Notes under the pieces: model-generated
Told to the model about the DNA's origin: nothing
The model's input: only the letters and a program-made list of their open reading frames with translations
Database searches by the model: none
Origin: Leucoraja erinacea
Lineage: Eukaryota
DNA length: 64,000 nucleotides
Assembly: GCF_028641065.1 (NCBI RefSeq)
Contig: NC_073397.1
Location: forward strand, 7,812,001 to 7,876,000
Direction of reading: 5' to 3'
Part shown: positions 3,658-51,510 of the stretch, in pieces
How positions within the stretch are numbered: position 1 is the stretch's first letter
Layout: every line of letters begins with the position of its first letter
Position numbers and translations under genes: made by a program

Positions 3658-3883
3658 CTGCAAAACACAGTAGAATGGTAACAATAGCTTTCCCTGCGGT
3701 AATGATCAGGTCTCCAATCATCTCCTTAATCCCCATCATTAATAATGTTAGCCTCCAGGCCAATCTTTGCTTGTTGCCCGCTTTGTCTTCAGTCAATGTT
3801 TCCTCCTCTTCCTCTTCCTCGTACTCCGCAGAATCTGACTCCGAGCTCGTTTCTTCTTCGGATTCTGTGCCTTCCACTTCTTC
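3658..3883 (-). CDS. PIEZO2-like: PIEZO2-like coding exon 6 (gene continues beyond the left edge of the window)
   Basis: ctgtcag acceptor, gtctgt donor, 226 nt, phase 0-1. Acidic tract, then GIKEMIGDLIITAGKAIVTILLCFA(G), compared with PIEZO2 KLKEFIGNMITTAGKVVVTILLGSSG. Confidence 0.94.
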
Positions 3884-4102
3884 CTGACAGCAATAAAGAT
3901 CAAAAAGTAAAAGAAGGGATTGAATTTAGTTGAGCGTTTTGGTAAATGGGGTACAGTTAGAGATTTAACTTGGATGGCCATCCCTCGCTCCCGTATTCCT
4001 CCCAAAAAACTGACTGCGAGCAAAAATAGCTCAGAGGTTTTAATAGAAAATTGCATAAACCTAACCGCAGAAACGGATAAATCTGACTTTCAACTGATAG
4101 AT

Positions 4103-4405
4103 TGGGCAGCACAGTGGCACAACAGTAGAGTTGCTGCCTTACAGCATGTGAGACCCGGGTTCGATCCTGACCACGGGTGCTGTTTGTATGGAGTTTGTAC
4201 ATTCTCCCTGTGACTGTGTGGGTTTTCTCCAGGTGTTCTGGTTTCCTCCTACACTCCAAAGATGTACAGATTTGCAGGTTAATGGCTTGTAAAATTCGTA
4301 AAGTTTCCCTAGTGTGTAGGATAGTGCTCATGTAGAGGGTGATCGCTGGTCGGCACAGACTCGGTGGACCAAAGGGCCTGTTGCCACATTGTATCTCTGA
4401 AGTTT
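4103..4405 (+). mobile_element. HE1/V-SINE-type tRNA-derived SINE
   Basis: tRNA-like head (GGCAGCACAGTGG...GGTTCGATCC), V-domain GGAGTTTGTACATTCTCCCTGTG, and CR1-like tail AAGGGCCTGTT...TGTATCTCT. Confidence 0.85.
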
Positions 4406-4762
4406 AAAGCTTAAAGTCTAAAAGTAATCAGCAAACACTCTCTCAAACAGTCGCACACGTTTGAGAGCAGACCTGCAGACAGTCCGGGCATGATTTCTGA
4501 TGAGGGGACACTAATTGTAGTGAGGCCGAGACATATCAATAGAAACAGCAATTCATTTCAGTTAAACAGAAACATAACTTGGCATCTAAAAGCTCTCCTC
4601 CACTTCTATGAACCTTAACATGTGATATGATGGAACTTTATTTATCCCCAGTTGGAAATTGGTCGACCAACAGTCGTAAAACGCAACAAGATGCATGAAA
4701 CATGAAATTAAAGTGAAATTAGTGAAGAATGGAAAGTCCAGGATTCGGGATGTGCGATAATT

Positions 4763-4774
4763 GGGGAGGGGGGG

Positions 4775-5591: not shown

Positions 5592-5760
5592 CTCAGGCCC
5601 ACTCTGACCCACGTCCTTGACATGATCTTGGACTCCATTGTCTGTCCTGGGGACGATCACCAATTTCCGACACATGATAAAAGCAGCCAAGCTCCCAATC
5701 AACATCCCAATATCTGGGATCACCAGGCGAATCCCATTTCCAACACCAGCTGCACTCAAC
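5592..5760 (-). CDS. PIEZO2-like: PIEZO2-like coding exon 5
   Basis: tttgtag acceptor, gtaagg donor, 169 nt, phase 2-0. Translates LSAAGVGNGIRLVIPDIGMLIGSLAAFIMCRKLV...GPE, compared with PIEZO2 ADAGNGIRVFVPDIGMFIASL. Confidence 0.95.
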
Positions 5761-7324: not shown

Positions 7325-7367
7325 CTGACTATTCCTGTCTGCCAGAGGGCGCTCTCCCACGCCGTCC
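7325..7367 (-). CDS. PIEZO2-like: PIEZO2-like coding exon 4
   Basis: ctttcccatag acceptor, gtaagt donor, 43 nt (conserved PIEZO exon size), phase 1-2. Translates (G)TAWESALWQTGIV(R), compared with CSTWEKTFRQIGF. Confidence 0.92.
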
Positions 7368-11284: not shown

Positions 11285-11386
11285 CATTGTACTGTACATA
11301 ATGGACCATTGCTTGAAATCCGATCTGAAGCAGCAGGAGGGTGAAGCTGGTGAGACACAAGGTTTTGAGAAGACATCCAGTGTGGC
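11285..11386 (-). CDS. PIEZO2-like: PIEZO2-like coding exon 3
   Basis: tttcag acceptor, gtaaga donor, 102 nt, phase 1-1. Translates (G)HTGCLLKTLCLTSFTLLLLQIGFQAMVHYVQYN(G), compared with PIEZO2 GHTGRLLKSLCFISLSF. Confidence 0.94.
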
Positions 11387-13144: not shown

Positions 13145-13240
13145 CTTGCATTGTGACGGTTGTTGGCTCAGCGAATAACGGCAATAGAAGGAGAAAGATG
13201 AAATAGAAGACTGAGAACCCATTGTACCGGAAAGAAATAG
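13145..13240 (-). CDS. PIEZO2-like: PIEZO2-like coding exon 2
   Basis: ttttcag acceptor, gtaaga donor, 96 nt, phase 1-1. Translates (A)ISFRYNGFSVFYFIFLLLLPLFAEPTTVTMQ(G), matching the PIEZO FRYNGLS...EPT..TMQG motif. Confidence 0.95.
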
Positions 13241-14139
13241 CTGAAAATAAGAGAGGAAAGACAATTATAGGTGGAAAAGGTAAAGTCAATCATGTATTCC
13301 ATCACCAATTTGCCTTGTCAACTTTAATATATCTGCATGACTGTATTGCCTTTTTCTCAAAGAAAATTTAAAACACCTGCACACATTCGATTTTTCATGA
13401 CATCCCAAGTGACTTTAAATCTCTTTCTGGGATTCACCAAGATCAGGAGCGAACTGCCCCCAAACTCCATGCAACTGCCTTTTCCTTTCTCTCATAATTA
13501 TAGACAATAGACAATAGGTGCAGGAGTAGGCCATTCGGTCCTTCGAGCCAGCACTGCCATGGCTGATCATCCACAATCTGCATTTCGTTGTCTCTGTACT
13601 GTACACTGACAATGACAATTAAAGTTGAATCTGATCTGAATCTGAATCTGACAATCAGTACCGTATAATATTTACATTGTAATTATTAAATATTAATCAA
13701 AATTAGATTCAAAATTAAACTTTGGCCCGACATCAATTGCTGTCTGAGGGGAGCTCAATGCATCCAGCTCTCTCCAGTGGAAGCATTTATAATGTCATTC
13801 TTCTCCCTGGTTCCAAAATTTATACTTTCCCCCTTTGTCTTCAACTTGAGGTTATTTTTATGCTGTTGAGATCTGCCTTATCAATCACCCAGAATATCGT
13901 CAAAACATCACTGGTTACTGCTCAAACTTTTAATTAGAATCCGAAAATGCTGGAAATACTCAGCAAGTCAGGCAGTAACTGCAGAAAGAGAAGAGTTAAT
14001 AGAAATGTCAACTCGGTTTTTCTTTCCACAGATGTTACCTGACCTGCCGATTACTGCCAACATGTTTATGTTTTCATTTTAATCTTTCCAGCTTCAGCAG
14101 TTTCTTTATTTTCACTTTATCTTTTAAATGTCAGCAAAT

Positions 14140-14925
14140 ACAACTTATTGGCAGACCAAGCGCAGGCTTGGCGATCATTTCGCTGAACACCTCCACTCAG
14201 TCCGCATGCACCTACCTGATCTCCCAATTGCCAAACACATCAATTTCCCCTCCCATTCCCACACTGACCCGTCTGCCCTAGGCCTCCTCCATTGTCAGAG
14301 TGAGGCTAAAAGCAAATTGGAGGAACCCAATCTCATTTTTCTCTTAGGCAGCTTACAACCCAGTGGCATGATTCCTCTCACTTCAAGTAACCCCTGCGTT
14401 CCCTCCCTCTCCATCCCTCCCCCATCCAAGTCGTACCAGCTTCAAAGTCTAAAAACAAAGCCACTCTAAAAACAAAATAAAACGTTTTGTTAAGACTCAT
14501 TATCTGTAACTAGTTCTCACCTAACAAACAGCTGACAATGACCCCTTTCCTTTATCATCATTACTTTTTTGCATCTCTCTCATTCATTTGTTCTATATCT
14601 CTCTATATCATCGTCTATATCTCTCGATTCCCTTTCCCCTGACTCTCCAGTCTGAAGAAGGGTCTCAACCCGAAACGTCACCTATTTCTTCTCTCCAGCC
14701 ATCTGCCCGTCTCGCTGAGTTACTCCAGCAGTTTGTGTCTACCATCGGTTTAAACCAGCATCAGCAGTTCCTTCCCAAACCTCTTCATAGATACATCCTA
14801 GATCTCTCCAACCAACTAGTCTAGAAAAGGGTCTCAACCCAAAACATCACCCATTCCTTCGCTCCAGAGATGCTGCCTGTCCCGCTGAGTTACTCTTGCA
14901 CTTTGTGTCTATCTTCAGTACAAAA
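14140..14925 (+). mobile_element. Penelope-like element 3' end: GIY-YIG endonuclease remnant plus terminal repeat
   Basis: YWQTKRRLGDHFAEHLHSV...PIAKH.N..SH...LEE..LIF.LG.LQP.GM is the GIY-YIG C-terminal signature of Penelope elements. It is followed by two copies of the short terminal repeat. Confidence 0.9.
14652..14679 (+). ncRNA. Minimal hammerhead ribozyme motif in the Penelope terminal repeat
   Basis: CTGAAGA-A-GGGT(CTCA)ACCC-GAAA-C-GTC, in sense orientation to the Penelope ORF. Confidence 0.65.
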
Positions 14926-16236
14926 CTTCAAGTGGTATTGTCATTTCATGCCTATATAGAGAGTCTAGCAAATTCCCCACAATACATATTACACTAACTG
15001 GTCGATAATTCATTGGTTTCTCCTTCCCATCCTCCTTGAGGGAAGGGAATTTTTTAATCTAAAGGAATGGATGTCAAACGGAGTAAATTAGATCAGCAAT
15101 GTAACTGTAAACCTTGGGATGGAAGTCATCGGGTCCTGTGGATTTATCACTCTTTACCGTCATTATTTGCTTCGTCACTTTTTCTTTTCTTGGGTTAATT
15201 TTGGCTAGTGATGAACCAAATTGAACAAGATTTTGTAGGAACACCTCAACAGATCTACACAAACCTGCCCACAGAATCCCACTTCTACCCCAGCAAGTGT
15301 GAACTTGGAAACCCCAAACTCACTGGCAGTAGTTTGTTGAAAATTTCACAATGACCCTCAGTGCTGGATTCTGTGTGAAGCTGCTGAACGTTATGGCCCC
15401 TACACCTGAAAATCTGCTCTAAGGCCCGGTGCCAAGTTGCAATGGACAGTCCTCCATTCACTTCTTGGAGAAGTACAGCTACAAGACTTAAAGTGCCAGT
15501 TTTGTTAAAGGTATCTTTAAAGTACTCTAAAACCAAAATAAAACTATTGATTAATGTTTGTTTGATAGATTGATTGATGGTTTCCGGACTTCAGAAGAGC
15601 TCGTGACCGAAAATGTGACCCATGTCGTCAACTATACCCGTGTGAGGCTTGGTGTTTCCAGGAGCACAACCCGAGTGTCAGTTTTCAGGTTACGAAGAAC
15701 ACTAAGAATTAAACTTCAATAGGTTGCTCCTCCATGAATAAATAGAAACCAAATCACAAGAAATTATAAATAGAAATGCAGCAACAGTAACGTCACAGAG
15801 TTTAGCTTCGGCTCCCTTTTACTGAAAGATCAATAATGTAATTTGCAGCACACATTAGAATAATAATGCCATTGATAAGACCATCAAGGAAAGATTGTCA
15901 GGGAAGGGTCAAGAGTAGTCAATAGAGGCTTTGTCATCTATATAGGCTCATAATATGACTTCCTCCCATGGCCTCTTGATTTAAAACTTCACAGTGTGAA
16001 GGAGAGCAGTTGAATATAAGGTGCTGTGCTTCAGGAGTATGTGAGCAGAGTTACACCTGTACCTGTGCTGGGAAGAGTTGTGAAATATTTGAAAGCGCAG
16101 AGTTCACGGGGAGAGCAGGGGAACACAAGTGCCACACCTCGCAGACATCAATGCAGAGACACAGACACAGTCACACATACACAGTGAAACAGACACACAC
16201 ACAGACAGAGAGACAGACACACACACAAACAGAGAC

Positions 16237-16755
16237 TAGGGTTGCCAACTTTCTCACTACCAAATTAGGGACAATAGATCAAAATACGGGACAAATTCTT
16301 GACGGCAATTCGTTGACCAACTCGGCCAGGGTGGGTGAATGATGAGTTGGCCCGGGTGCTGGACTGCACACAACGCCCAGCTGGCGGGCCAGTTGAGGAG
16401 TTTTGGCCCGTGCGACGTCGCGTGCAGAGTCCGGCGCCCCATCTGACTCATGAACTGATGATCTACCATGAGAAGGAGTGGTGGTGGTGTCGGCGGGAAG
16501 CGAAGGTCCGAAGGTCGGATAGCTGGCTGGGCTGCCGACCGACAGGGCCACAGGTAAGGTGCTGCTGCTGCACTCCATGGGCTGCACTACGTTGGGATGG
16601 GTGAGGCGGGGCCGGATGCGGCACTCCGACCCGACAGTCCCCTCGACCTGAGTAGCAGCAGTCAAATACGGGGCAAGGGCGGTCCCGTACGGGATAAACC
16701 AATTTAGCCCAATATACGGGATGTCGCGGCTAATACAGGACAGTTGGCAACCCTA
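16237..16755. mobile_element. hAT-type MITE
   Basis: TIR TAGGGTTGCCAACT / AGTTGGCAACCCTA; 8-bp TSD ACAGAGAC / ACAGAGAT. Inserted in a CA-rich low-complexity tract. Confidence 0.9.
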
Positions 16756-17220
16756 ACAGAGATACACATACACAGGCACAGACAGTCACACGCAGAGACA
16801 CACACAGACACACAATGGCTCCATTCATTCATCATGGCCTCTCCAAGCCCACTCTCTCCAAGATGGCCACACTCAACTTTATTCCCACCAAAATGCTTCC
16901 CAGCAATGCCCCTCCCATGTTTCCATGCCTGTAAAAAGACGTTCTTTGGGAAATATCACGGACGGCCTCTGGGACTTCCTGCATCGTTTGGGTGAGGTCC
17001 AAGAATATTTCCCCATCTGAACAATCAGATTATTTATGTCCTTAACCTTTGCTTTTACACTTCCAGTAACAGCCCAGGCTGCACTCCTGAACACAGTGCA
17101 ATTCATTGAACACAAATGCAGAGATAGTGATAGATTTATGTATAGAAAAAAAAATAGAATGTTACACACACTCAGTTTAGTTAATGGATGACAGTGGCTT
17201 CCCTGGAAAAGCGACTCCAA

Positions 17221-18510
17221 ACATAGAAACATAGAAAATAGGTGCAGGAGGAGGCCATTCGGCCCTTCGAGCCAGCACCGCCGTTCATTGTGATCATGGC
17301 TGATCGTCCCTAATCAATAACCCGTGCCTGCCTTCTCCCCATATCCCTTGATTCCACTAGCCCCTAGAGCTCGATCGAACTCTCTCTTAAATCGATCCAG
17401 TGATTTGGCCTCCACTGCCCTCTGTGGTAGTGAATTCCATAAATACACAACTCTCTGGGTGAAAAAGTTTTTTCTCACCTCAGTCTTAAATGACCTCCCC
17501 TTTATTCTAAGACTGTGGCCCCTGGTTCTGGATTCGCCCAACATTGGGAACATTTTTCCTGCATCTAGCTTGTCCAGTCCTTTTATAATTTTATATGTTT
17601 CTATAAGAATACCCCTCATCCTTCTAAACTCCAGTAAATACAAGCCTAGTCTTTTCAATTTTTCCTCTTATGACAGTCCCGCCATCCCAGGGATCAATCT
17701 TGTGAACCTACGCTGCACTGCCTCAATCACAAGGATGTCCTTCCTCAAATTTGGAGACCAAAACTGTACACAATACTCCAGATGTGGTCTTACCAGAGCC
17801 CTATACAACTGCAGAAGAACCTATTTACTCCTATACTGAAATCCTCTTGTTATGAAGGCCAACATTCCATTAGCTTTCTTCATTGCCTGCTGTACCTGCA
17901 CGCCAACTTTCAGTGACCGGTGTACAAGGACACCCAGGTCTCGCTGTCCCTCCCCCTTACCTAACCTCATTGAGATAATAATCTGCCCCCTTGTTTTTGC
18001 TGCCAAAGTGGATAACCTCACATTTATCTATATCATACTGCATCTGCCACGCATCTGCCCACTCAGTCAACCTGTCCAGGTCGCCCTGCAACCTCCCAAC
18101 ATCGTCTTCATAGAAACATAGAAACATAGAAATTAGGTGCAGGAGTAGGCCATTCGGCCCTTCGAGCCTGCACCGCCATTCAATATGATCATGGCTGATC
18201 ATCCAACTCAGTATCCCGTACCTGCCTTCTCTCCATACCCCCTGATCCCCTTGGCCACAAGGGCCACATCTAACTCCCTCGTAAATATAGCCAATGAACT
18301 GGCCTCAACTACCCTCTGTGGCAGAGAGTTCCAGAGATTCACCACTCTCTGTGTGAAAAAATTTCTTCTCATCTCGGTTTTAAAGGATTTCCCCTTTATC
18401 CTTAAGCTGTGACCCCTTGTCTTCACACTGTTCACACTGCCACCCAGCTTTGTGTCATCCGCAAACTTGCTAGTGTTGCTCCTAATTCCCTCTTCCAAAT
18501 CATTAATATA
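17221..18510 (-). mobile_element. Two tandem CR1 (HER1-type) LINE 3' fragments
   Basis: Motifs KCEVIHFG, LEFRRMRG.LIETYKI, TRGHSLRIKG and RVVNLWNSLPQ. (TTTCTATG)n tails at about 17221 and 18109. Confidence 0.93.
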
Positions 18511-20199: not shown

Positions 20200-20228
20200 T
20201 TTTCTTTAGTTTTTTTCTAGTATGTTGA

Positions 20229-35230: not shown

Positions 35231-35525
35231 AGGGCAGCACAGCGGTAGAGTTGCTGCCTAACAATGCCAGGGACCCTAGTTCGATCCTGACTATGGGCGC
35301 TGTCTGTATGCAGTTTGTATGTTTTCCCTGTGACCACGTGGGTTTACTCCAGCTACACTGGTTTCCTCCCACATCCCAAAGACGTATAGGTTTGTAGGTT
35401 CATTGGCATCGGTAAGATTGTAAATTATCCCTAGCATGTAAGATAGCGCTGATGTACCGAGTGATCGCTGGTCAGACGGACTCAGTGGGGCAAAGGGCCT
35501 ATTTCCAGAGCTGTATCTCTAAAGT
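35231..35525 (+). mobile_element. HE1-type SINE
   Basis: Same family signature. Confidence 0.85.
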
Positions 35526-37725: not shown

Positions 37726-40700
37726 TGTCACGCTTCTGCTGTTGGAATAACTTGGGTCATACACAGTGATTAAGATCCAAAGACTTTATTAGCGTTACAG
37801 CATAGGTAACTTCATCTTACTACGTAACTCAAGACTGAGGAAGCTTTCTGTTAAACTAGCGGGTGTAGCTACAAAGTATCTCATAACACGAGTGACACTG
37901 ATCTACATCCTCCCTCTTAAAGAATTACATGTCAATACAAAACCATTGACTAAATAAGGCACGCATAGCAATTGTTAATTAGCTGCAGGAAAGTCAAACA
38001 TAGCCCGGGTACTTCACGGTGGGCTTGCAAACATGACCAGCACGGGAGCGATAAAAAACATCTCCGTTTTTCCCCACCGGGGTCAGAGCCGGTGGCTTCA
38101 CGGGTGATGGAGATTGAACAGGGGACTGCAGCGCAGGCAGAGGGGGCATCGCCACTGGCAAAGCAGCCGCTCCCAAACTGGGTTGTTGTGCTGGTGCAAG
38201 CGGATCAATGCCGCTGGGCACAGACGGCAGTACACTTGTACAGTCTGGAGAATACAGAGGTGGAGTCTGCTCATTCACAGGCAAGATATGTTGGCTGTTA
38301 CGCCTGTAGGTGCCGCCATTGGCACTGACCAGATATGAGTGTGGCTCAGAAGCAGTTCCAGCAATTACACAGATACAGTCATGGTCTTGGTCAGTTTACA
38401 AATGAACCACCCGCCCCTTGGTTAGTTATGTGGCGAAAACCCCAGCATGCAGCAAACTTGAAGTGTTGGCTGGTAAATTGACTGCTGTTATCAGAATGCA
38501 CGGAGCTCGTTGTCTGCAAAATGGTGAGCAAGCTTCGAAACTACCCCGCGAGAAATGGGACTGCTAAGAAAATCAATGCCAAATCATCCAGAATGTGAAT
38601 TGACAAGTACCAGGTACTGCTTGCCATGACATTCAAACATGTCAGTTGCCACTGTAGACCGCGGGAAAGCAGGAGCCGGATGTGAAAGAAGTGGTTGCTT
38701 TTGTTGATGAGGTGCAAAACTGTTGCACACTGCACAGGATGCCACATTCCCAGTAATGTATTCGGACATGCCAGGCCGGTAAAACATGTTACTTGCCCGT
38801 AGGACGGTGGCATTTATTTGAAGAAGATTTCTCAATTTACATTGAAGCAGCTCACCCTACTGCTGCTCCCGGTATTCGAGCGTCAATTCTACTTAATCTA
38901 GCAGACACAGAAGCTGCCAAGGTGCAAGAAGATTTCATTATGTACCGGCTAGGTTTTACCCGGCTGGTGTCCAGATCGCTCCCGTTGAATCTACCCGTGA
39001 ACCCGATTGCCTACTATGCAAATTCCGACAGTTATGTGAGTTACACACTAACTTGGTCATGGAGAGGCATTTGTTCTTTTCCCGATGCCAGAGACAGGGT
39101 GAACCTGTGGAGATGTGTCAGTGACTTGAAGCACATTGCCAGTCGATGTGATTTCAGGGATATACGTGATAGCTTAATCCGTGACCTTTTGGTCGATGGT
39201 GTCCGCAATGATAAATTACGCTACGAGTTATTGTGGAATGCTGAGCTGACTCTAGTGACTGCTCAAAACCGCTGTCACATTGCTGAAATGTCTGACGCTC
39301 ATAAAAAAGTTTTAGGGCACTCTGCTGGTCATGCAATTAATGTTGCCGGCATGTCTTATCAAATCTCTTGCCATTCTCCTCAAGTGCCCGACAACTCTAT
39401 CGTGAGGTGGGGGTTTGCATGCTGCTGTTCATGACCGTTGCCCTGCGTATGGAAAATTATGTCGATTTTGTAACAAAAGGTATAATTTCTTCAAATGCTG
39501 CCGCTTGTGTAGCAACAGAGTTCAAACAAGGCAATCTGTAAATTCACTTGGCTATGAGAACTTGCTCTCAGAATGCTCTCAACCAGCTCCTGTAGGCTGC
39601 TAGCGAAAGGTTTTGACTTGAATGTGCATTCCCTGTTTGACTCAATACACAAACCACTAGACCCCAAGGTCGCTTTGCTCGCTAATGGTAAGAACTTTTA
39701 TCTGAAAGTTGACACAGGGGCCAGGTGTATCGTGATTTGTCTGGCTGTGTTGAAAAAGTTACGAAAAACAGAGACTGTCACTACTACGGCTGCCTCCCTT
39801 CTCCCATTTGCAGGAGGTCCAGGGCACCCTATTGGTCAAGTCGAGTTATGCTGCTGTCTTAACTGACGTGTCCACAACCTGAATTTCTATGTTGTTCGTG
39901 AGGATGTGCCGTCTCTGCTGGGTGCCAATGCTTGTCACGACATGGGACTTGTCTCTTTCACCCCTTCTGTTTGTCATCTGACTACAACCTGTGACTTTAG
40001 CCAACAAATCCTGACACAATACAAAACTTTGTTTGACGACAAGCTGGGCAGGCTGCCTGTTAAGTACACAATTACCATTAACCCTGAGATAATCCCAGTT
40101 GTCCGTCCAGCACACAAGATTCCCCATGCCATGTTCAAAATGACCTCAACACAATGGTGTCTCTAGGTGTGATTGCGCCTGTCGCTGACCCCTCGGATTG
40201 GGTCTCCACCATGGTTGTGGCAACAAAGAAGAATAAAGACAAAATACAGATTTGTATCAACCCTAAGGATTTAAACACAGCCATTAAACGACCTCACTAT
40301 CCCATGTGCACTGTGGACGAGATTGCAGCGCAGATGGCTGAGGCAACTGTATTCACTGTACGAGATGCCAAGAGTTCATTCTGGCAGATTTTGCTGGAAC
40401 ACAACTCCTCCAAGGTAACCACCTTCAACACACCGTTCGGACGATACAGATTTCTTCGCATGCCTTTTGGCATAAGCTCTGCTAGTGAAGTATTTCAATA
40501 AGCTATGGAGCAGTTGTTTGCGGGTTACCCATGTCCATTGTAGTGGATGACATCCTCGTTGCTGGACGAACTGTCAAAGAACACGATGCTAATCTGACAA
40601 AGGTCCTGGATCTCACCAAGGCCATTAACCTCAAGCTAAACCCTCAAAAATGCAAATTCAGGATAAGTGAGGTGAAATACATAGGCCATGTGTTCACTAA

Positions 40701-41402
40701 GGATGGCCTAAAAACTGATCCGGTGAAAACCAGTGCCATCAACGAGCTCCCACAGCACCCACAGACGTGCTCGGTCTACAAAGATTCCTTGGCATGGTGA
40801 ACTACTTGAGCAAATTTATTCCGGACTTCAGTGAAATATCAGCCCCGTTGCACCAGCTTACACACAAAGACATTGCTTGGACCTGGCACGCACAACAGCA
40901 AAGGGCGTTCAACACTCTTAAGCAGCAGATGTCTTGTGTTAGTTGAGGCCAGTTCATTGGTTCGTAGTTGAGGCCAGTTCATTGGTTATATTTAAGAAGG
41001 AGTTAGATGTGACCCTTGTGGCTAAAGGGATCAGGGGGTATGGAGAGAAGGCAGGTACAGGATACTAAGTTGGATGATCAGCCATATTGAATGGCGGTGC
41101 AGGCTCGAAGGGCGAATGGCGTACTCCTGCACTTATTTTCTATGTCTATATTTCTATTTTTCTATGCTCCTACTCTTCACTTATTTTGATCCCACTTCTG
41201 ACACCATGTCGAGCTTCTGCTGTTGGAAAAACTTAAGTCACACAGTGATTAAGATCCCAAGAATTTATTAGCGTTGCAGCATAGGTAACTTCATCTTAAT
41301 ACACAACTCAAGACTGAGGGAGAAAGGGCTTAGAAGCTTTCTGTTAAACTAGTGGGCGTAGCTACAAAGTATGACTCATAACATGAGTGACACTGATCTA
41401 TA
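37726..41402 (-). mobile_element. Degenerate Ty3/Gypsy LTR retrotransposon with an internal inversion
   Basis: Direct LTRs at 37726-37907 and 41207-41402. PBS TGGTGTCAGAAGTGGGAT (minus, 41206-41189), complementary to a tRNA-Leu 3' end. PPT TTAAGAGGGAGGA (minus, 37920-37908). TSD CAGGG / CAGAG. Remnants of gag, protease (KVDTGA), RT (TPFGRYRFLRMPFG, VVDDIL) and integrase. Confidence 0.93.
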
Positions 41403-42258
41403 CAGAGTCTTCACTGTTAGTAATGTAGACAAAGAGTCGTCACCAGTTCCGCTAATGGATACATGCCGCCCGGCTGTTCAGTTTTGTGCTGACTGATTAA
41501 GCTGCCAGATTTGCATTTTTAATAATTAAGCCTACCACAAAATGCTTCCTACACACAGCAAAGTCACAAGGTGGCAAGTGATAGTGTCATTCCAATCAGA
41601 AAACAAAAGAGACACAAAGTGCTGGAGTAATTTAGCGAGTCAGGCAGCATCACCAGCAAACAAGGAGGTGACATTTTGGTTGGGACCCTTCATCACATTA
41701 TCTACGTTCGCCAGAAATGTTGCCGGACACACCGAGTTACTCCAGCACTTTGTGTCTTTTTTTTTAAAAATATTGGTCTGCACCTGCAGTCTCCTGTATC
41801 TAAATGAATTTATTCAGTTTCATTGTTTCATGCATTAAGTAGATATTAGCAATTAAAAAAAAACTATTTGCCTTTTCAGATGCTTTTCATGATGGTACAG
41901 ATGCAATCATTTGGATGGAGGTAGGAGACATTGACGACTCTCAGCAAACAGTTTGTCAAGGAAAATAAAACAGTATGTTGGAAATACTCAGCAGGTCAGG
42001 CAGCATTTGTGGAGAAAGGAGCAGTCAGATCAGATGCTTAGTCGCAGCATTATTTTCATTCCAGCGGTGTTTTGTTCTTGGATCACTGTAGGATAACGTC
42101 TATTCACTCACAGGTCTATCCAAAACACGGAGGAAACAGGATTCATTGCAACCTTTCCCAATAAAATCTATGGAACTTTTCTACAAATTGCACTCTGTAT
42201 GTTCACATTCACATTTATTGCCACATGCACCAATTAAGGTACAGTGGAATTTGATTTA

Positions 42259-42554
42259 AACCCCTGTCCCATGGTACGAGTTCATTCCAAGAGTTCTCCC
42301 GAGTTTGCCCTGATTCGAACTCAGAGATTTAAGGTAATGGCCACTCATCGTTACTCGGGGCTCTCGTGGACATTTTTCAACATGTTAAAAAAAAATCTTC
42401 ACGAGTCTTCCCTCCCGTCCACGTTACAAGCCGGTAAGAGACGTCCCCGAGGTCCAACGTACCCGCTACGTTCATTCTCCGTGCTTACCAAAAGTTTAAT
42501 TTTTTTAAACTCGGGAGAGCTCTAGGAATGAACTCGTACCATGGGACAGGGCCA
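42259..42554. mobile_element. PIF/Harbinger-type MITE
   Basis: About 45-bp TIR CCCTGTCCCATGGTACGAGTTCATTCC...; TTA on both flanks. Confidence 0.85.
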
Positions 42555-42616
42555 TTACCATGCAGCCATACAATCAAAAAGAGCACCATACACAATAGAG
42601 TATAACACGATAGCAT

Positions 42617-43242
42617 TCATAGCAAATGGATTTGAATATAGGAGCAGGGAGGTTCTACTGCAGTTGTACCGGGTCTTGGTGTGACCACACTTGGATTATT
42701 GCGTACAGTTTTGGTCTCCTAATCTGAGGAAAGACATTCTTGCCATAGAGGGAGTACAGAGAAGGTTCACCAGACTGATTCCTGGGATGTCAGGACTTTA
42801 ATATGAAGAAAGACTGGATAGACTCGGTTTGTACTCGCTAGAATTTAGAAGATTGAGGGGGGGATCGTATAGAAACTTACAAAATTCTTAAGGGGTTGGA
42901 CAGGCTAGATGCAGGCAGATTATTCCCGATGTTGGGGAACTCCAGAACAAGGGGTCACAGTTTAAGGATAAGAGGGGGAATCCTTTAAGACCGAGATGAG
43001 AAAAACATTTTTCACACAGAGAGTGGTGAATCTCTGGAACCCTCTGCTACAGAAGGTAGTTGAGGCCAGTTCATTGGCTAGATTTAAGAGGGAGTTAGAT
43101 GTGGCCCTTGTGGCTAAAGGGATCAGGGGGTATGGAGAGAAGGCAGGTACAGGATACCGAGTTGGATGATCAGCCATGATCATATTGAATGGCTCGAAGG
43201 GCCGAATGGCCTACTCCTGCACTGATTTTCTATGTTTCTATG
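42617..43242 (+). mobile_element. CR1 (HER1-type) LINE 3' fragment
   Basis: Reverse complement of the 17221-17850 type; ends TTTCTATGTTTCTATG. Confidence 0.92.
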
Positions 43243-43399
43243 ATTTTAGTTAATCTGCAACTGCATTTTCAGTGACTGTTTAATCAAATCTGTTCACTTC
43301 TATTGATGCTACTAATTCATTCATATTGTTGTGACTACTTTTCACGTACTTTCACGAAGGGCCGAATAGCCTACTCCTGCACCTATTTTCTATGTTTCT

Positions 43400-43900
43400 A
43401 TGAACATCCATCACAGTGGAATCAACATTCTTCACTGTGGTGGAAGGCCGTTCGGTTAGTCCTCCTCCTTTTTTCATCCGTGGTTGGGGCCACAAACCCT
43501 CCGCAGTCGCTGCTACGGACGGCCCGATGTACAGACCCTCTTGTCATGATGCTCGAAACTCCGACGTCAGGATGGACGGACACTCCGCGGTTTGCAGGTC
43601 CCGAATCGGCCGCTTCCTACCAGAGACCGCTGCTCAACGATGTTGTAGGCCGCAGGCCGGCAGTCAGAGCTCTTCTCCGGCGATCCCCGGCAAAGGATCA
43701 CCGGCTTTGCGATGGAAAGTCCACGCTGCGCCCGCTGCTGAAGCTCTGGGCCCCGACTCCGGGAGAGGCCGCACCAATCCACGTTGTTAGGCCGCGAGGA
43801 AGGCGAAAATATGACATGAAGAAAAGTCACATACCGTCGAGGCAAGCTACCAAAAACAGTTTCCCCCTATTCCCCGCCACCACCCCCCACACTAAAGCAT
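43400..43900 (-). mobile_element. GC-rich non-autonomous retroposon body
   Basis: Resembles 20200-21013 and 52380-52945 (CACAGTG...CACTGTG motif). Its tail appears displaced to about 42200-42610 by later insertions. Confidence 0.5.
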
Positions 43901-46338
43901 AGATGCACTTTGTAGATGCACTTCAAATCACCGGCACTAAATGGGGCCCTTTTACTGGATCCTATCTATTCCCCTCTCTATACACGGTTCACAATTTAGA
44001 CACATGTTTATTCACATTTCCAGATTTGTAGAAAGGCCGTTGACCTGAAAGGCTAACCTAGTTTCCCACTCCATAGATGCTCACCCACTTCCTGAATATT
44101 TCTGGCATTTTCTATTTTATCTTAATTATGACTTCACCCACAGCAACTGCAATTTGCTGCTTTTGACATCGATTCAACCTTCTCCTTCAATCCTTTCTCA
44201 ATATGCAAAGCTAAAGACTGCCAGTGCAACACTTAATAAGGTCCCATCTACCTGACTTCACAGCAGCATTGCAAACCTCCAGGCCATGCTTTCGGAACAC
44301 ACAGAGGACATGAGCAAGTAGCGGAAGGCCCAGACCACCTCCCAAACTGACCACCTACCTCCAACGCCATCTTCACTTCTCACATTGACTGCATCAGCCA
44401 CCAGAGAACCAACATAACTAAGAGTGGAAGCAAGTAATCCTTGATCCCAAAGGGATTGCACGAGATGACGAAAGATCTGTATTTGTAGGGATCAATATCC
44501 GAGCGAATGTATGCAGGAAAAGGCTAATTAATATTGCGTGCTTCAGCAAAATTGGTGGCTGGACAGCGAGCCACTATCACTTTATAATAAGGCAGTCTCA
44601 TGGTCTGACGGGAAATGGTAACAGTAAAGAGTTTAAACTCCATCAAAACTCATTGTATTGTAGAACCACAGAAACGTTTTGTTATAAATGGATGGAAAAC
44701 TCATTTATTCCAGTTTAGATAACTGCTTCATTATTGTATGGCCAAGACAATTTATTCAAAGATGGACACAAAAAAACAGAGCAATTCAGCAGGTCAGTCA
44801 GAATCTCAGGAGAAAAGACATAGGTGAAGTTTCACGTCAAGACCCTTCTAAAGTCTCCAGAGATGCTGTCTGACCTGCTGAGTTACTCCAGCTTTTTGTA
44901 TTCCTACAACATTCCCATTGAGTCGCATGAGATTAAGTTCAATAGGATCGTAAGCTTTTAACACTGTTTGACCTTGACCTAAGAAATAGAAGGAAAATTG
45001 GTGAGTTTTTGGTGGATATACTTGACATTACAATGTAACCCAGAGGTGGCTTCACGCAGCTCCATAGCAAGAGAAAGGCATGTTATCAATGTAGATACAG
45101 CATTAGATTTACCTGGAGGCAATGCCGATGATCATGTGCCCAAATAAATCTCTCACCAGTACAATGCCAGAAAGAAATTCTGAAGGGAGTTCCCAACATA
45201 AGCTATAGTAGAATACATCCTTTAATAAACCACCAGACAATGATGAAACTAAATCACAGATTCCAATTTCCTGAGAATCATGTGGGCATTGTGTTCACAT
45301 GGTTGGACAAGAAGTGGAGAAGGTACCATAAATATATTTAAAAACCCTGAATGCAAGCTCTTCCAAATATCATTACAAAGAACACTGGTCATGACTTTTC
45401 TGAATAGTAAAATGTTTCACTGTGAGAGTCTGTGACGAGTAATATATCATGTTTCTCTCAAATGACCGTACATTTAGTGATGTGGACGTCAATATTAAAA
45501 AATGTTAAATTTGAACATCCTAATTGTCTTAGAAGTTTTCCAAAAAGAAAACACCTCCCAAAAAGTTCAAGGCAACAGACTTAGAAGTAATGGTTTGGAT
45601 TGTGCACATTTCTCTTGTCAGGCTGCAAGCAACATTTGCTACCTAGTAAAGAATCCTAGTGCCTATAATCTGATCATATGCAACCTTCATACATCGTGCA
45701 CTGCCATGTTATCAAAAGCTGGTCAGGGAGTCAAGAGTCAAGAATGTTTAATTGACATATGTATCAAAATGAAACGTTGGAATTCTAGGCATTACTTCGA
45801 GGAAGTTATGGGCATAAAAAGGGGCAAAGCCCGATACATTTTAGAAAACAAGGACAGAAACAAGGATATACAGCATATATCAAAGTAGGATTGGACTGGT
45901 AGCCCACATATAACATGGAGTATAAAAAAGAAACCTATATGATGCTGATGCAAAACTAGACACAAAAAGCTGGAGTTACTCTGCAGGTCAGGCAACTCCT
46001 CTGGATAAAAGGAATAGGTGAAGTTTCGGGTCGAGACCCTTCTTCAGACTCCGAGGCAAAGATGACCGATTGTTCTTGATGAAAAGTCATCAACCTGAAA
46101 CATTAATTCTGTTTCTCTCCACACAGACTCCACCTGCCCTGTTGGGCATTTCCATCAATTCTGTTTTAATTCAGGTTGAACACAAATGCAATCTTTTTCA
46201 GAATCAGATTTTCAATTATGGATGGGTATTGCATGCTCATGGAGGATGCAATATGCTTAGGACAAAGTGGAATTATTGAGCCCAAAACTTGGTTTGGATT
46301 TCACCAACAAGCAGGCATGGAGCAGGGAAATATGTGTC

Positions 46339-47318
46339 TGTTAGTTTAGACAAGCACACCTCTTCAACCCTCACCCTGAACACCGGCGTTCCACAGGGCT
46401 GTATGCTGAGCCCCCTCCTCTACTCCCTCTTCACCTATGACTGCACACCTGTACATGGTACTAACACCATCATCAAGTATGCAGATGATACAACGGTGAT
46501 TGGCCTCATCAGCAACAACGATGAGTTGGCCTACAGGGAGGAGGTCCAGCACTTAGCATGGTGCGCTGACAACAACCTGGCCCTTAACTCCAAGAAGACC
46601 AAGGAGCTCATTGTAGACTTCAGGAAGTCCAGAGGCGGCACGCACACCCCCATCCACATTAACGGGACGGAGGTGGAACGTGTTTCTAGCTTCAGGTTAC
46701 TGGGAGTCAACATCTCCGATGACCTCTCTTGGACCCACAATACCTCAACTCTGATCAAGAATGCTCACCAGCGTCTCTTCTTCCTGAGGAGACTGAAGAA
46801 GGTCCATCTGTCTCCTCAGATCCTGGTGAACTTCTACCACTGCACCATCGAGAGCATCCTTACCAACTGCATCACAGTATGGTATAGCAATTGCTCTGTC
46901 TCCGACCGGAAGGCACTGCAGAGGGTGGTGAAAATTACCCAACGCATCACCGGTTCCTCGCTCCCCTCCATTGAGTCGGTCCAAAGCAAGCGCTGTCTGC
47001 GGAGGGCGCTCAGCATCGCCAAGGACTGCTCTCACCCCAACCATGGACTGTTTACCCTCCTACCATCCGGGAGGCGCTACAGGTCTCTCCATTGCCGAAC
47101 CAGCAGGTCGAGGAACAGCTTCTTTCCGGCGGCTGTCACTCTGCTCAACAACGTACCTCGGTGACTGCCAATCACCACCCCCCCCCCCCCACGGACACTT
47201 ATTATTATTTATTCAAATCATTTGCTATGTCGCTCTTCCAGGGAGATGCTAAATGCATTCCGTTGTCTCTGTACTGTACACTGACAATGACAATTAAAAT
47301 TGAATCTTAATCTGAATC
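46339..47318 (+). mobile_element. Rex1/Babar LINE 3' end, young
   Basis: Uninterrupted ORF with GVPQGCMLSP, KYADDTT, KNAHQRLFFLRRL and LPSGRRYRS. Near-identical to the reverse complement of 8760-9725. Confidence 0.95.
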
Positions 47319-49318
47319 CGATGTGGAACTAGGCGATTACTGTTTCTGAAAAGATCAGAGTTAGAAGTTCAACAGGCACTGGTGGCTAAAGTGACTTATT
47401 CTTAATCAAATGTTCACCGATGGATTTACACTACAAACGCCCCTGCTATGGTGGTACTGAGGGGACTTTGTGTACGGCATTAATACACTTCAATTGCTCC
47501 GAATATCATGATTACTCAAGTCCTCATTTACTGAGCTATTTTAGTATTCATTTCTGCCATATCTTTAAAAGTTGATGATTTTTTTGTACCCTCCCTTTGA
47601 TATGAAAATCATTTGCAATTACTGCTGTATTTTCCACCTCTGCCTTCAAGGGGTTTTCAATATAGGCCGTCCCAGGCAGGGTTACAAATTCCCAACCCAT
47701 GGACACACCGTACACACAAACGAGTTCTCATGAATATTACTGAACTCAAACGAGAACCTGTCCTGCAAAAAAAAAAAGGCGTTTCCATGTAATCTTTCCA
47801 TATTAATCAGGCACCATTGCATCTTGAGAACACAGGCTGCCAGTTTCACTGCGGGAGGCCATTGAAGAGAGTTTCTTTGGAAGCTGATATTTGTGCAACG
47901 ACACTCTATTAAACAATGTGACAGCCACTGGTCATTGAGCATAGGGCGTCCTGATTATGTACCATTGTAACAGTAAATGAACATTGATGTCAATTGACCT
48001 TCATCAATACTGTGAAGGTATGATTATCATATCCATTGATTTATGGATGTCCGTAAAACTAGAACCGGTTCGTAACCCGAAAACGGTCTTATTTTAATTA
48101 CAGTCCATGGAATTTTCCACCTGCAATTAAAACAGACCTCTCCACCATTCAATACGATCATGACTGATCTTCTACCTCAGCACCAGCTTCCTGCACCAAA
48201 TGTAGATTGCTCGATTCCCTTAATGTCCATAGATCTATTTATCCCAGCCCTGAATATACCCAATGACTCAAAGCTCTTGGGGAGAGATGTTCAAAGATTC
48301 TTTACTCAAAAGAAATGTCCTTTCTCCTTCATGAATGACTGGCTTGGGATAATGACCCACAGTTGTAGATACCCAAATCAGAGAACACTCTATCCTGTGC
48401 AGCCCTGTAAGAATTCTCAATCAGACCACCCCTTATTCATCTAAACTCAGCATTTCTCCCCTCAGTATTGGGCTTGCCTACTTAATCTCTTCTTGTAGAA
48501 TAGACCCCCATTCCAGCAATCAGCCTGGTTGACTTTAGGCACCTCCTCCATCACAGGTATCTACCTCCTCTTCAACTGGACACTTAAAATGGATTCTCAT
48601 CCCACCCACCAGCCAGGCCAGCCATTCCCCTGCACACACCCACCTTCACCTGGAGACGGGGACACACACCTAGGCCCCGTCCTCTCACTGGGACCACCCC
48701 TCATTCTGCCTTTTATTTTTAAAAAGCACTTTATTTTTGGTCTTCCACCCCTGCAACGGACTGTTCCAGCTGCTACCGTTAGGCAAACGCCTCCGTTGCC
48801 ATGCGGTGAGAACAGAGAGGTTGAGAAGGAGTTTCTTCCCAGAGGCCATTCGGACTGTAAACGCCTATCTCACCAGGGACTAACTCTACTGAACGTTTTT
48901 CCTTCCATTATTTATTATGTAAAGGTATATGTGTGTTATGATTGTGTTTATTGTTTGTTTGGTTGTTTGTCTTTTGCACAAAAGTCCGCGAGCATTGCCA
49001 CTTTCATTTCACATCTTGTATGTGTATGTGACAAATAAACTTGACTTGACTTGAAACGTCGCATATTCCTCCTCTCCATAGATGCTGCCTCACCCGCTGA
49101 GTTTCTCCAGCATTTTGTTCACTTTCTTTTGTCATTCTATGGTTATATAATTCTCTCCAGTGCCGCGAGGTGCTATACTGCTCACCTTAACCATTTAATC
49201 AGGGAAGGGGTACACTGGAGCTGTCCTGAGCTATTAACTATCTCATTGAAGACCCTCGGACTATCTTTACTCGGACTGTACCTTGCACTAAACATTATTT
49301 CCTTTATCATGTATCTGT

Positions 49319-49623
49319 ATTCTCCCCGTTGGATTGCAACCTTGTCGTGGTCGGGGAGCTTGTGCGTCTCAGTGACCCCTAGAGCTATGCCAGCGGGAGA
49401 TTCGTCTCCTGTTAGGGTCTCCCATGCTGGACAGGTCGAAGGGTAGAGGTGAGACGATGAGCGATCCACTGGTCCTCCAGGTTGGAGGTTGAGCACAGGG
49501 CTAACAATCCCGTCTCGTAAAACAAATACGTTACGGAAACAGCAACTGAAGGAATCAACATTACTGTGGAAGACCTTCGTTGCTGCCCTACATACCAGGA
49601 GGCATAATAGGCAGCAAGGAAGG
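49319..49623 (+). mobile_element. Bipartite RTE-derived non-autonomous retroposon
   Basis: RTE/Expander-like 5'UTR motifs (CCTTGTCGTGG, AGGGTCTCCCATG, GGTCCTCCAGGTTGG...GGGCTAACAA) fused to an RTE-like 3' end. 10-bp TSD ATGTATCTGT at 49309-49318 / 49624-49633. Confidence 0.7.
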
Positions 49624-51446
49624 ATGTATCTGTGCACTGTGGACGGTTTAATTGTAATCATGTAATCATTGTAGTCTTTCCGCTGACTGGTTAGCATGCA
49701 TCAAATAGGGTTCACTGTACCTCGGTACACGTGACAATAAACTCAACACCCACAAATGCCAGAAAAGTTCTCCTGAGGAGGTTTCTATTATGGGTAATCC
49801 AGCACAGAAAGAGCCCAACAAACGTCATTCCCACCCCTTCAGTATGTCCCATCCTGGCTTCATTACACAACTTTAATTTCACTTTAAAGAGGACATTCTG
49901 TTTCTTTTCTGTGGAGATTCAGAGACTGCGTTACCAGCAGTTTTGGGACTGATGCTGAAACAGAGAGAGAAAAAAATGACCGTTTGCAACTCCCCCTGGG
50001 CTAATTGGAGGAAAGAGGAACTCTGAACCAAAGATCTAAAGAACCAAAGGCACAACACCAAGAAGAAGCTGCTAGTGGCCTTCTACCGGGTGACCATTGA
50101 GAGTCTACTGACATATCGCATGTCAGTGTGGTATGCAGGCTGCTCTGCTGCAGATAAGAAAGCGCTCCAGAGAGTGGTATAAACAGCAGAGAGAATCACT
50201 GGCTGACCTCTCTGGAGGATACTGCCACCTCACGCTACCCTAGCAGAGCCACTAAAATCATCAAAGACCCCACACACCCCAGTCACCACCTTTTAGACCA
50301 GTTGCCCTCTGGCAGGCGTTACAAGTCAGCCAACACACGCACCTCCAGACTCAGGGACAGTTTCTCCCCCAAAGCAATCTTCACACTCAATATGAAAAAA
50401 ACACCTAGTATTATTCCTGCTGCTACCCACCTTGAACTTTACTATCACCATGTACAGTACCGTTTACTTACTTATCTTGATACCTAGTTTTTAAACATTG
50501 TTTTTAAATTGTGTCCTGTGTTTTTATGTTTGTATATTATGCACCAATGGAGTGGCAATGACAATGTCGTTGCATGCAGTGTTTGCAACGACAAATAAAG
50601 GCATTTCATTCGTTTTCGATTATCTTTGCTCTGAACTGCCACCAAAAAAGCTGCCATGTTCACAAACCTGTTTGGAGACGAGGGTCAACCCTGCCTCTTG
50701 GGATGATATCATTTCCAGTTCATGCTTCCACCAGGGTCAACCAGGCCCATGTGACATTCTTGAGCGGCCCTGCCATGTAGGCCTCACATTACAACTGGGG
50801 GGGAGGGTGTGGGTGGATGGAGGGGGCGCAGTATTTTCCCGGATTTGGGAATATTTCTACCGTCAAGCGACGCTTGGCCAGAACCTCGTCGTAACGGATC
50901 AGCCAAGGTAGTAACCCCGCATGGTGATCTATCCATTACCCATTCTATCATCTATCATAAGGTGAACGGCCTTGTCTCACTCTGCACACCTTGTCACAGA
51001 TCCGTTGACGGTAAACCTTCCCAATTAAACCAGTCGATGTAACCGGCCCCGAGCAACAACCCAACCGTGTCAACGAGCCTGTAGATAGATGCGCTTTGGG
51101 GCAACCGCTCCCAACTAATGGGGAGCTCAGCTCAACTCAACTCAACTTTATGCACAGTATCTCGAAAGGCAGTCGAGCAAGTAACACGAACATTAAGGAC
51201 ATAGGTTCCCCTCTCCCCTTATGCTCGCTCTGAAGAAGGGTCTCTGCCCGAAACATCGCCTATTCCTTCTCTCCAGAGATGCTGCCTGTCCCGCTGAGTT
51301 ACTCCAGCATTTCCATCTGTCCCTCCTCCCTAAACAAGCTCGACGCTTGTAGTCTGGGACTTCGCTTTCACGTTTTAAACAGACAAGTGGACTTCACACA
51401 GCCCGCTGCAATGTAACCATTAGATTGAGAAGGTGGTTGCACTCAC

Positions 51447-51510
51447 CTGTTAGTAGACAGAGAGGGAGCAGGAGCCTGAAGATTAAGCCGCAGCCGAGGT
51501 GAGCAGCCAT
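51447..51510 (-). CDS. PIEZO2-like: PIEZO-family mechanosensitive channel (PIEZO2-like, possibly piezo3), coding exon 1
   Basis: ATG in strong context (GCGATGG). Translates MAAHLGCGLIFRLLLPLCLLT, compared with PIEZO2 MASEVVCGLIFRLLLPICLAV. 64 nt, the known PIEZO exon-1 coding length. Donor GTGAGT at 51446-51441. Confidence 0.93.

What the first reader, a model, noticed from the sequence alone, without database searches (positions are those of the whole stretch)
3658..51510. Divergent PIEZO paralog: candidate intact piezo3 rather than orthodox PIEZO2
Seen: six exons splice in frame to 233 codons with no stops, giving MAAHLGCGLIFRLLLPLCLLTAISFRYNGFSVFYF...HTGCLLKTLC...YNGTAWESALWQTGIVRLSAAGVGNGIRLVIPDIG...KEMIGDLIITAGKAIVTILLCFA. 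Known: the motifs are closer to PIEZO2 than to PIEZO1, and a third vertebrate paralog (piezo3) exists in many non-mammalian lineages. Inference: the marked divergence from PIEZO2 and the compact introns 2-5 (1.6-3.9 kb) fit that little-studied paralog, which would be an uncharacterised mechanosensor in a cartilaginous fish.
Basis: partly seen in the sequence, partly recalled or inferred. Interest (0 to 1): 0.7.

Follow-up and report, generated by a model that had tools for sequence, protein, structure and literature searches.

The report
Intact piezo3 gene, cartilaginous fish
This is the start of an unbroken, predicted 53-exon gene for Piezo3, the already described third vertebrate force-sensing ion channel, in a cartilaginous fish that also has separate PIEZO1 and PIEZO2 genes; its one unusual trait is a half-lost lysine patch near the pore that might make it close more slowly.

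Summary
Observation confirmed: six minus-strand exons give 700 nt and 233 stop-free codons; introns 2-5 are 1.6-3.9 kb. The gene runs on beyond the window as a modelled 53-exon, 2,669-2,689-residue frame with no stop or frameshift. The genome has three Piezo loci. This one falls in the third vertebrate clade beside shark and chimaera '2-like' proteins (100/100), and placement inside PIEZO2 is rejected (p-AU 1e-11). Separate PIEZO2 (C4) and PIEZO1 (C17) genes exist. Most published piezo3 neighbours are on the same contig, though the GNAS-NELFCD block lies 1.0-1.3 Mb away. Piezo3 is already described, including in chondrichthyans, with a zebrafish channel assay and knockouts (PMC13228305), so this is an ordinary orthologue. 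Not found in my searches: the tetralysine needed for PIEZO1 inactivation reads KKNM in all five chondrichthyan Piezo3 proteins in hand and here, predicting slower inactivation (untested); and a SPIRE3-like gene lies 64-81 kb upstream. Expression was not shown. The scan's notes held no earlier piezo3 finding.

The parts
51447..51510 (-). piezo3 coding exon 1 (ATG at 51510, 64 nt, phase-1 donor)
51483..51527 (-). Out-of-frame upstream ATG 17 nt before the main ATG, opening a 14-codon frame that overlaps the start (candidate overlapping uORF; transcription start unknown)
51251..52250 (.). GC- and CpG-enriched stretch around exon 1 (GC 0.53-0.61, CpG observed/expected 0.66-0.67); probable promoter region (inferred)
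13241..51446 (-). Intron 1, 38,206 nt, about one third interspersed repeats
13145..13240 (-). piezo3 exon 2 (96 nt; same size and phase as in PIEZO2 on C4)
11285..11386 (-). piezo3 exon 3 (102 nt; 24 nt shorter than the 126-nt PIEZO2 exon, a loop gap shared with 8 of 8 amphibian piezo3 proteins that matched the pattern)
7325..7367 (-). piezo3 exon 4 (43 nt)
5592..5760 (-). piezo3 exon 5 (169 nt; Pfam Piezo_TM1-24, E 6.5e-6)
3658..3883 (-). piezo3 exon 6 (226 nt; acidic loop and next helix; Pfam Piezo_TM1-24, E 0.004)
1..3657 (-). Part of intron 6 (5,177 nt). Exons 7-53 lie outside the window at G000:C21:7810480-7687461

Best explanation
The six exons are the 5' end of the animal's piezo3 gene, whose modelled frame is unbroken over 53 exons and is predicted to encode a full-length mechanically opened cation channel of the Piezo type. 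Shown: an open frame of 2,669-2,689 residues; membership of the third vertebrate Piezo clade; separate PIEZO1 and PIEZO2 genes; conserved inner-helix gate and voltage residues (equivalents of mouse Piezo1 L2475, V2476, K2479, R2482) and the MFEE stretch. Inferred from PIEZO1/2 and zebrafish Piezo3: three subunits form a curved propeller, membrane tension flattens the blades, and beam and anchor open a central Ca2+-permeable pore. The window encodes the outermost blade helices. Inferred and untested: a supporting, non-essential mechanosensory role as in zebrafish, with possibly slower inactivation because the lysine patch before the outer helix is reduced.
For: Spliced alignment to a piezo3 profile: 52 exons, no frameshift, no stop, GT-AG throughout; with exon 1, 8,049 nt and a TGA. 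Three Piezo_cap loci in the genome: C4, C17, C21 (9 of 9 matches). Tree of the last 750 residues, 51 rows: the gene groups with Heptranchias and Scyliorhinus (100/98), then Callorhinchus (100/99), in a 24-row clade (100/100) with coelacanth, lungfish, amphibians, reptiles, platypus, wombat, mole, tree shrew and deer; C4 joins chimp, rat and bird PIEZO2 (100/99); C17 joins mouse PIEZO1 (100/99) (same groups under a mixture model). AU test rejects placement inside PIEZO2 (28 rows, p 1e-11). The window's 233 residues alone pair with the shark piezo3 (100/100) and reject PIEZO2 (p 0.0006). Identity 75% to the two shark proteins, 53% to C4, 45% to C17, and 84-91% to the shark protein over the last 600 residues. 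Neighbours on C21: NPEPL1-like tail to tail about 2 kb away, VAP (50), beta-tubulin and PRELI (51, 55, 66), the only NELFCD locus found (12 of 12 matches), a cathepsin beside it (53) and a Gs-alpha-like gene (18, 60). These match the published piezo3 block (PMC13228305). Gate residues by ungapped alignment to PDB Piezo1 and Piezo2; their roles from PMC10531961 (passages).
Against: Expression is not shown. Of 4 runs laid on exons 38-39, one contig of one guessed-RNA run matched 213 nt of exon 39 without differences and stopped at its donor; no splice joint was seen, exon 38 had no cover in any run, and the one raw-read RNA run (another organism, about 6% read) put no reads on either exon. The gene model is computed, and two donors are uncertain (exon 9: 99 or 117 nt; exon 16: 174 or 216 nt). 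A 14-residue segment of the shark protein has no exon here. The protein has 1.5-2 times as many unique changes as the shark orthologue (151-168 against 77-104 with four outgroups), with no control for lineage-wide rate. Synteny is imperfect: GNAS-NELFCD-cathepsin lie 1.0-1.3 Mb away on the 3' side, no APCDD1L was found on C21 (0 of 3 matches), and an NPEPL1 copy also flanks PIEZO2. No zebrafish piezo3 sequence was in hand, so the clade name rests on its make-up and synteny. A hydropathy scan found only 26 strong segments, but also only 21 and 27 in the PIEZO2 and PIEZO1 models, so it is uninformative.
Confidence: 0.93

Rival explanations
1. It is the orthodox PIEZO2, or a recent lineage-specific duplicate of PIEZO2, that has diverged quickly.
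For: The last exon scores higher against solved PIEZO2 than PIEZO1 (145 against 131 bits). The nearest shark protein is labelled 'component 2' by its source. The window fragment is 46% identical to bowfin PIEZO2 and was unresolved in a small tree (p-AU 0.47). Both loci have an NPEPL1 copy downstream.
Against: A separate gene on C4 groups with mammalian and bird PIEZO2 (100/99) and has very large 5' introns. AU tests reject the placement. The clade spans chimaera to deer and follows the species tree, so it predates the split of jawed vertebrates.
Confidence: 0.02
2. It is piezo3 by descent but silent or decaying here (a young pseudogene or relaxed selection), as in humans and mice.
For: Faster change than the shark orthologue (chi-square 8.7-26.8). 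Scant transcript evidence. A rearrangement separates the 5' end from GNAS, a broken LINE lies 5-9 kb upstream, and an out-of-frame ATG precedes the start. The zebrafish gene is non-essential (PMC13228305).
Against: About 8 kb of frame over 53 exons has no stop, frameshift or non-canonical splice site. Conservation is highest in the pore module (84-91%) and lowest in linkers (61-67%), the pattern expected of purifying selection. One contig ends at a splice donor.
Confidence: 0.05

Closest known systems
Piezo3 (zebrafish si:dkey-11f4.7; human pseudogene PIEZO1P2), Dong et al. 2026 preprint, PMC13228305
   Same: Third vertebrate Piezo clade, nearer PIEZO2 than PIEZO1. Similar length (2,605-2,651 aa in zebrafish). 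Same chromosomal block (NPEPL1, VAP, beta-tubulin, PRELI, NELFCD, cathepsin, Gs-alpha). The paper already lists chondrichthyans as carriers.
   Different: Gene order differs from the order the paper calls conserved in sharks: GNAS-NELFCD-cathepsin are displaced, SPIRE3-like and PIGT-like genes lie upstream, and APCDD1L was not found. The lysine patch is KKNM here but KKKK in the three teleost piezo3 proteins aligned. No functional data for the cartilaginous-fish protein in my searches.
Heptranchias perlo XP_067856809-11 (labelled 'component 2'), Scyliorhinus torazame scyTo_0013328, Callorhinchus milii 'component 2-like'
   Same: Direct orthologues by tree. The two sharks are 75% identical to this protein; all three share the KKNM motif.
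   Different: They are not labelled piezo3 by their sources. This gene has more unique substitutions and lacks a 14-residue segment of the Heptranchias protein.
PIEZO2 (mouse PDB 6KG7; the C4 gene of this genome)
   Same: Near-identical exon phases, 53% identity to the C4 model, conserved inner helix and C-terminal domain, and an NPEPL1 copy tail to tail.
   Different: Separate clade. 5' introns 14-55 times shorter here. Exon 3 is 8 codons shorter. His after the inner helix is Arg (132 of 134 piezo3 against 0 of 96 PIEZO2). 6 against 10 basic residues in the 24-residue segment before the outer helix.
PIEZO1 (mouse PDB 5Z10; the C17 gene of this genome)
   Same: Same domain series in the orthologue (five Piezo Pfam domains in P0488). 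Gate, K2479, R2482 and MFEE equivalents are kept. A symmetric 72-nt exon 34 aligns with the segment I recall as the lateral-plug exon.
   Different: 45% identity, a different clade and a different contig.

Membership tests
Piezo channel family | Full-length protein with blade repeats, beam, anchor, outer helix, cap, inner helix and C-terminal domain in order | tested here: met
   The 53-exon model aligns along a piezo3 profile to column 2741 of 2748. Its 75%-identical orthologue carries all five Piezo Pfam domains. Window exons hit Piezo_TM1-24 and 3' exons hit Piezo_cap.
Piezo channel family | Conserved pore residues (hydrophobic gate, K2479 and R2482 equivalents, MFEE, anchor glutamate) | tested here: met
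   Ungapped alignment of the last exon to PDB Piezo1 and Piezo2; alignments. The anchor-glutamate role is recalled.
Piezo channel family | Mechanically activated cation current; homotrimer | not testable with these tools
   Needs expression and recording. Calcium entry on poking was shown for zebrafish Piezo3 (PMC13228305, results read).
Piezo3 subfamily | Groups in the third vertebrate clade, apart from PIEZO1 and PIEZO2 | tested here: met
   The zebrafish type sequence was not in hand; the clade was named from its members and synteny.
Piezo3 subfamily | PIEZO1 and PIEZO2 present as separate genes in the same genome | tested here: met
   C17 and C4 loci modelled and placed.
Piezo3 subfamily | Lies in the prelid3b-atp5f1e-tubb1-ctsz-nelfcd-gnas-piezo3-npepl1-stx16-apcdd1l-vapb-rab22a block | tested here: met
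   Family-level matches for 7 of the 11 neighbours lie within 1.4 Mb on C21: PRELI, beta-tubulin, cathepsin, NELFCD, Gs-alpha, NPEPL1 and VAP. APCDD1L was not found, a recalled ATP5F1E pattern found nothing, and the syntaxin and RAB22A were not tested.
Piezo3 subfamily | Published gene order with GNAS directly upstream | tested here: not met
   The Gs-alpha-like gene is at C21:6.36-6.51 Mb, on the 3' side. The upstream neighbour is a SPIRE3-like gene. Rearrangement and misassembly were not told apart. Order is also variable in teleosts (PMC13228305), so this does not exclude membership.
Piezo3 subfamily | Transcribed and spliced as modelled | tested here: inconclusive
   One contig matches exon 39 up to its donor; no joint was seen.
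PIEZO2 | Groups with mammalian PIEZO2 | tested here: not met
   p-AU 1e-11 and 0.0006 for the window fragment.
PIEZO2 | Linked to NAPG and APCDD1 | tested here: not met
   APCDD1 is on C4, the PIEZO2 contig, 29 Mb from that gene. NAPG was not located by the SNAP search (matches only on C8 and C38).

The most novel reading that the evidence does not exclude
Cartilaginous-fish Piezo3 is a naturally slow-inactivating Piezo. The four-lysine patch proposed to bind PIP2, whose deletion removes PIEZO1 inactivation, is KKNM from chimaera to elasmobranchs, and elasmobranchs lack two more basic residues beside it. Together with the clade-wide His-to-Arg change after the inner helix, this would give a sustained-current mechanosensor unlike the zebrafish Piezo3 that has been tested, and a natural variant for testing how lipids control Piezo inactivation.
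Probability: 0.25. Interest if true: 0.6.

Novelty: new member of a known kind. Interest (0 to 1): 0.3.

Why it matters
As an orthologue it adds little: piezo3 and its presence in chondrichthyans are in print (PMC13228305). It matters in three modest ways. (1) Labels mislead: the sevengill-shark piezo3 and several teleost piezo3 proteins are named 'component 2' by their sources, so reports of 'piezo2' in cartilaginous fishes, such as skate sensory ganglia (PMC13621994, passages), should state which locus was probed. (2) The reduced lysine patch gives a cheap, testable prediction about inactivation. (3) Each of the three Piezo genes has a SPIRE-type gene within about 2 Mb, which ties the mammal-lost SPIRE3 and piezo3 to one duplicated chromosome block. 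[quoted passage not shown]

Tried and rejected
No RNA holder listed: the run search named no holder on record as RNA; this is no evidence on expression. NAPG was not located. APCDD1L was not found on C21. One 40-residue exon separates Gs from Golf for the C21 gene (70.9 against 57.2 bits) but not for the C4 gene (65.6 against 64.3), so 'GNAL' for C4 is by position only. A whole-frame Pfam scan for the syntaxin neighbour could not be run. A first tree of the window fragment kept only 10 of 26 rows through a poor cut and was unresolved; it was redone from the alignment. A search for a 42-nt exon in intron 16 found none. The hydropathy count was uninformative. The Atlas gave no hit for the KIND exon. 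No structure or complex was predicted, because the family is certain from sequence. Paper searches: 'piezo3' gave 16 papers, 14 listed, one on this gene. H2490 with piezo1 gave 0. NPEPL1/ohnolog/GNAL/paralogon gave 0. Piezo with skate and ampullae gave 4, and piezo2 with shark and cartilaginous fish gave 5; none has a title on a chondrichthyan Piezo3. Table S1 of the piezo3 preprint (accessions) was not in the supplement text held, so the paper may already include this species; figures were not seen. Subscription papers are not searched.
Full report
Observation. Six exons at 51510-51447, 13240-13145, 11386-11285, 7367-7325, 5760-5592 and 3883-3658 splice through GT-AG introns to 700 nt, that is 233 codons without a stop. 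Intron 1 is 38.2 kb and introns 2-5 are 1,758, 3,917, 1,564 and 1,708 nt. The window is G000:C21:7812001-7876000.

The whole gene. I fetched 200 kb downstream and aligned it, allowing introns, stops and frameshifts, to a profile of 13 returned orthologues. The result was 52 exons from exon 2 on, with no frameshift, no stop and canonical splice sites. With exon 1 this is 53 exons, 8,049 nt and 2,683 residues ending in TGA, over 176 kb. Two donors are uncertain: exon 9 may be 117 instead of 99 nt, and exon 16 is more probably 174 than 216 nt, matching both paralogs. The range is 2,669-2,689 residues. A 14-residue segment of the shark protein has no exon in intron 16. The same method gave a PIEZO1 model 98% identical to an unnamed public protein over 2,407 aligned residues, which supports the modelling.

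Three Piezo genes. A Piezo_cap search gave 9 matches at three loci: C4, C17 and C21. I modelled most of the other two. A maximum-likelihood tree of the last 750 residues (51 rows; five long invertebrate rows left out) puts the window gene with Heptranchias and Scyliorhinus (100/98) and Callorhinchus (100/99). They sit in a 24-row clade (100/100) that also holds coelacanth, lungfish, amphibians, reptiles, holosteans, teleosts, platypus, wombat, mole, tree shrew and deer, and none of the three bird rows. C4 groups with chimp, rat and bird PIEZO2 (100/99) and C17 with mouse PIEZO1 (100/99) (names). The mixture-model tree with all 56 rows has the same groups (quick search only). An AU test on 28 rows rejects the window gene inside PIEZO2 (p 1e-11). 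The window's own 233 residues are ambiguous by identity (46% to bowfin PIEZO2, 40-45% to three bony-vertebrate piezo3, 64% over 109 residues to the shark orthologue) and were unresolved in a 10-row tree. With 27 rows they pair with the shark protein (100/100), the clade has 83/77, and PIEZO2 is rejected (p 0.0006). Exon 3 is 102 nt against 126 nt in PIEZO2, a gap shared with 8 of 8 amphibian piezo3 proteins that matched the pattern and absent from 2 of 2 bowfin PIEZO2 isoforms (10 of 20 full-length proteins matched). The animal is an elasmobranch by this tree; two earlier AI notes call it a skate or ray, which I did not check.

Surroundings. On C21: a Gs-alpha-like gene at 6.36-6.51 Mb, NELFCD at 6.68-6.72, a papain-family protease at 6.73-6.74 (CTSZ by position), a VAP at 7.55, an NPEPL1-like gene ending about 2 kb from the piezo3 stop, piezo3, a SPIRE-type gene at 7.927-7.944, a PIGT-like exon at 7.98 (weak, E 0.003), a beta-tubulin at 8.00 and a PRELI gene at 8.04. 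This is the block published for piezo3 (PMC13228305), but the order differs: GNAS-NELFCD-cathepsin lie on the 3' side, and APCDD1L was not found. On C4, PIEZO2 has the paralogous set: SPIRE, PRELI, a Gs-family alpha and a second NPEPL1 tail to tail, with VAP and APCDD1 29 Mb away.

How it most likely works. Shown: the last exon aligns without gaps to solved Piezo1 and Piezo2 and keeps the equivalents of mouse Piezo1 L2475, V2476, K2479 and R2482, which control inactivation (PMC10531961, passages), and the MFEE stretch. Identity to the shark orthologue is 84-91% in the last 600 residues and 61-67% in linkers. Inferred: a trimeric, tension-gated, Ca2+-permeable channel like PIEZO1/2. Zebrafish Piezo3 passes calcium on poking, is blocked by streptomycin, is expressed in brain, eye, pharyngeal arches and fin buds, and is dispensable, with mutants more reactive to tapping (PMC13228305, results read). 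Exon 34 is a symmetric 72-nt exon aligned with the segment I recall as the lateral-plug exon; skipping that exon raises conductance in Piezo1.1 (PMC9256749, passages). Skipping here is untested.

What differs. The four-lysine patch before the outer helix is, by position, human PIEZO1 K2166-K2169 (equivalence inferred). It is proposed to bind PIP2, and its deletion removes inactivation (PMC10531961, passages). Of 489 proteins in hand, 306 matched the anchor pattern and 301 were classed by best score (isoforms and near-duplicates included). The patch has four basic residues in 65 of 65 PIEZO1 and 95 of 97 PIEZO2, but is KKKK in only 53 of 138 piezo3; three lysines are common (KKKM 47, KKKL 19). 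It is KKNM in 5, all chondrichthyan (three species), and in this gene. The 24-residue segment has 6 basic residues here against 10 in both paralogs. The histidine after the inner helix is arginine in 132 of 134 piezo3, and in 0 of 96 PIEZO2 and 0 of 61 PIEZO1. A paper search for that residue found nothing. Two lysines remain and the K-to-N/M change was never tested, so slower inactivation is a prediction at about 1 in 4.

Expression. Not shown. On exons 38-39, one 219-nt contig of a guessed-RNA run matches 213 nt of exon 39 exactly and stops at the donor; there is no joint, no cover of exon 38, and no exon reads in the raw-read run of another organism.

Literature seen. PMC13228305: parts 1-3 of 7 (introduction, results, discussion, part of methods), passages with figure legends, and the supplement PDF text (legends only). 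PMC10531961, PMC9256749, PMC13621994 and 10.1101/591974: passages. 10.1101/787531 and PMC11231147: search listing only. The propeller mechanism and the plug-exon position are recalled.

Verdict. It is an expected orthologue of a described gene, with one testable sequence difference and a useful synteny link to SPIRE3. Interest 0.3.

Noticed in passing
G000:C21:7927459-7944314 (L106-L107), 64-81 kb upstream of exon 1: SPIRE-type gene: KIND exons (Pfam E 3e-8) and further exons 39-65% identical to the SPIRE genes on C4 and C17. It is the third KIND/SPIRE locus found, and each lies within about 2 Mb of a Piezo gene. Probably SPIRE3, known from chimaera and sauropsids and lost in mammals (10.1101/591974). 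Intactness not checked.
   Followed up: partly
G000:C4:60573944-60595588 (L056-L058): A second NPEPL1-like aminopeptidase gene tail to tail with PIEZO2, with exons 59-86% identical to the copy beside piezo3: a probable retained ohnolog. My one paper search found nothing on it.
   Followed up: partly
G000:C21:6.36-8.04 Mb: The GNAS-NELFCD-cathepsin block is displaced 1.0-1.3 Mb to the 3' side of piezo3, unlike the order reported as conserved in sharks; APCDD1L was not found. Rearrangement or misassembly.
   Followed up: partly
window 51483-51527 (-): Out-of-frame ATG 17 nt upstream of the piezo3 start opens a 14-codon frame overlapping it; it could damp translation if it is in the mRNA.
   Followed up: no
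window 56806-60035 (-): Broken non-LTR retrotransposon 5-9 kb upstream of exon 1: endonuclease and reverse transcriptase in a 748-aa frame, and zf-RVT in an overlapping second frame. Upstream frames to about 63200 had no Pfam match.
   Followed up: partly
window 38757-40800 (+): Fragmented reverse-transcriptase element in intron 1, RT split over two frames; by eye an LTR-retrotransposon remnant. Observed only.
   Followed up: no
window 9569-10609 (-), 24991-25683 (-), 46280-47164 (+): LINE reverse-transcriptase fragments in introns 3 and 1; about 32% of the gene span is interspersed repeat.
   Followed up: no
public proteins P0233/P0488/P0489, P0168, P0180, P0173, P0187, P0227, P0076, P0149, P0163, P0348: Proteins labelled 'component 2' or 'PIEZO2' by their sources that fall in the piezo3 clade: mislabelling is common.
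   Followed up: yes
G000:C17:38648406-38648652 (L003): This genome's PIEZO1 has tyrosine where 59 of 61 PIEZO1 proteins counted have histidine after the inner helix.
   Followed up: no
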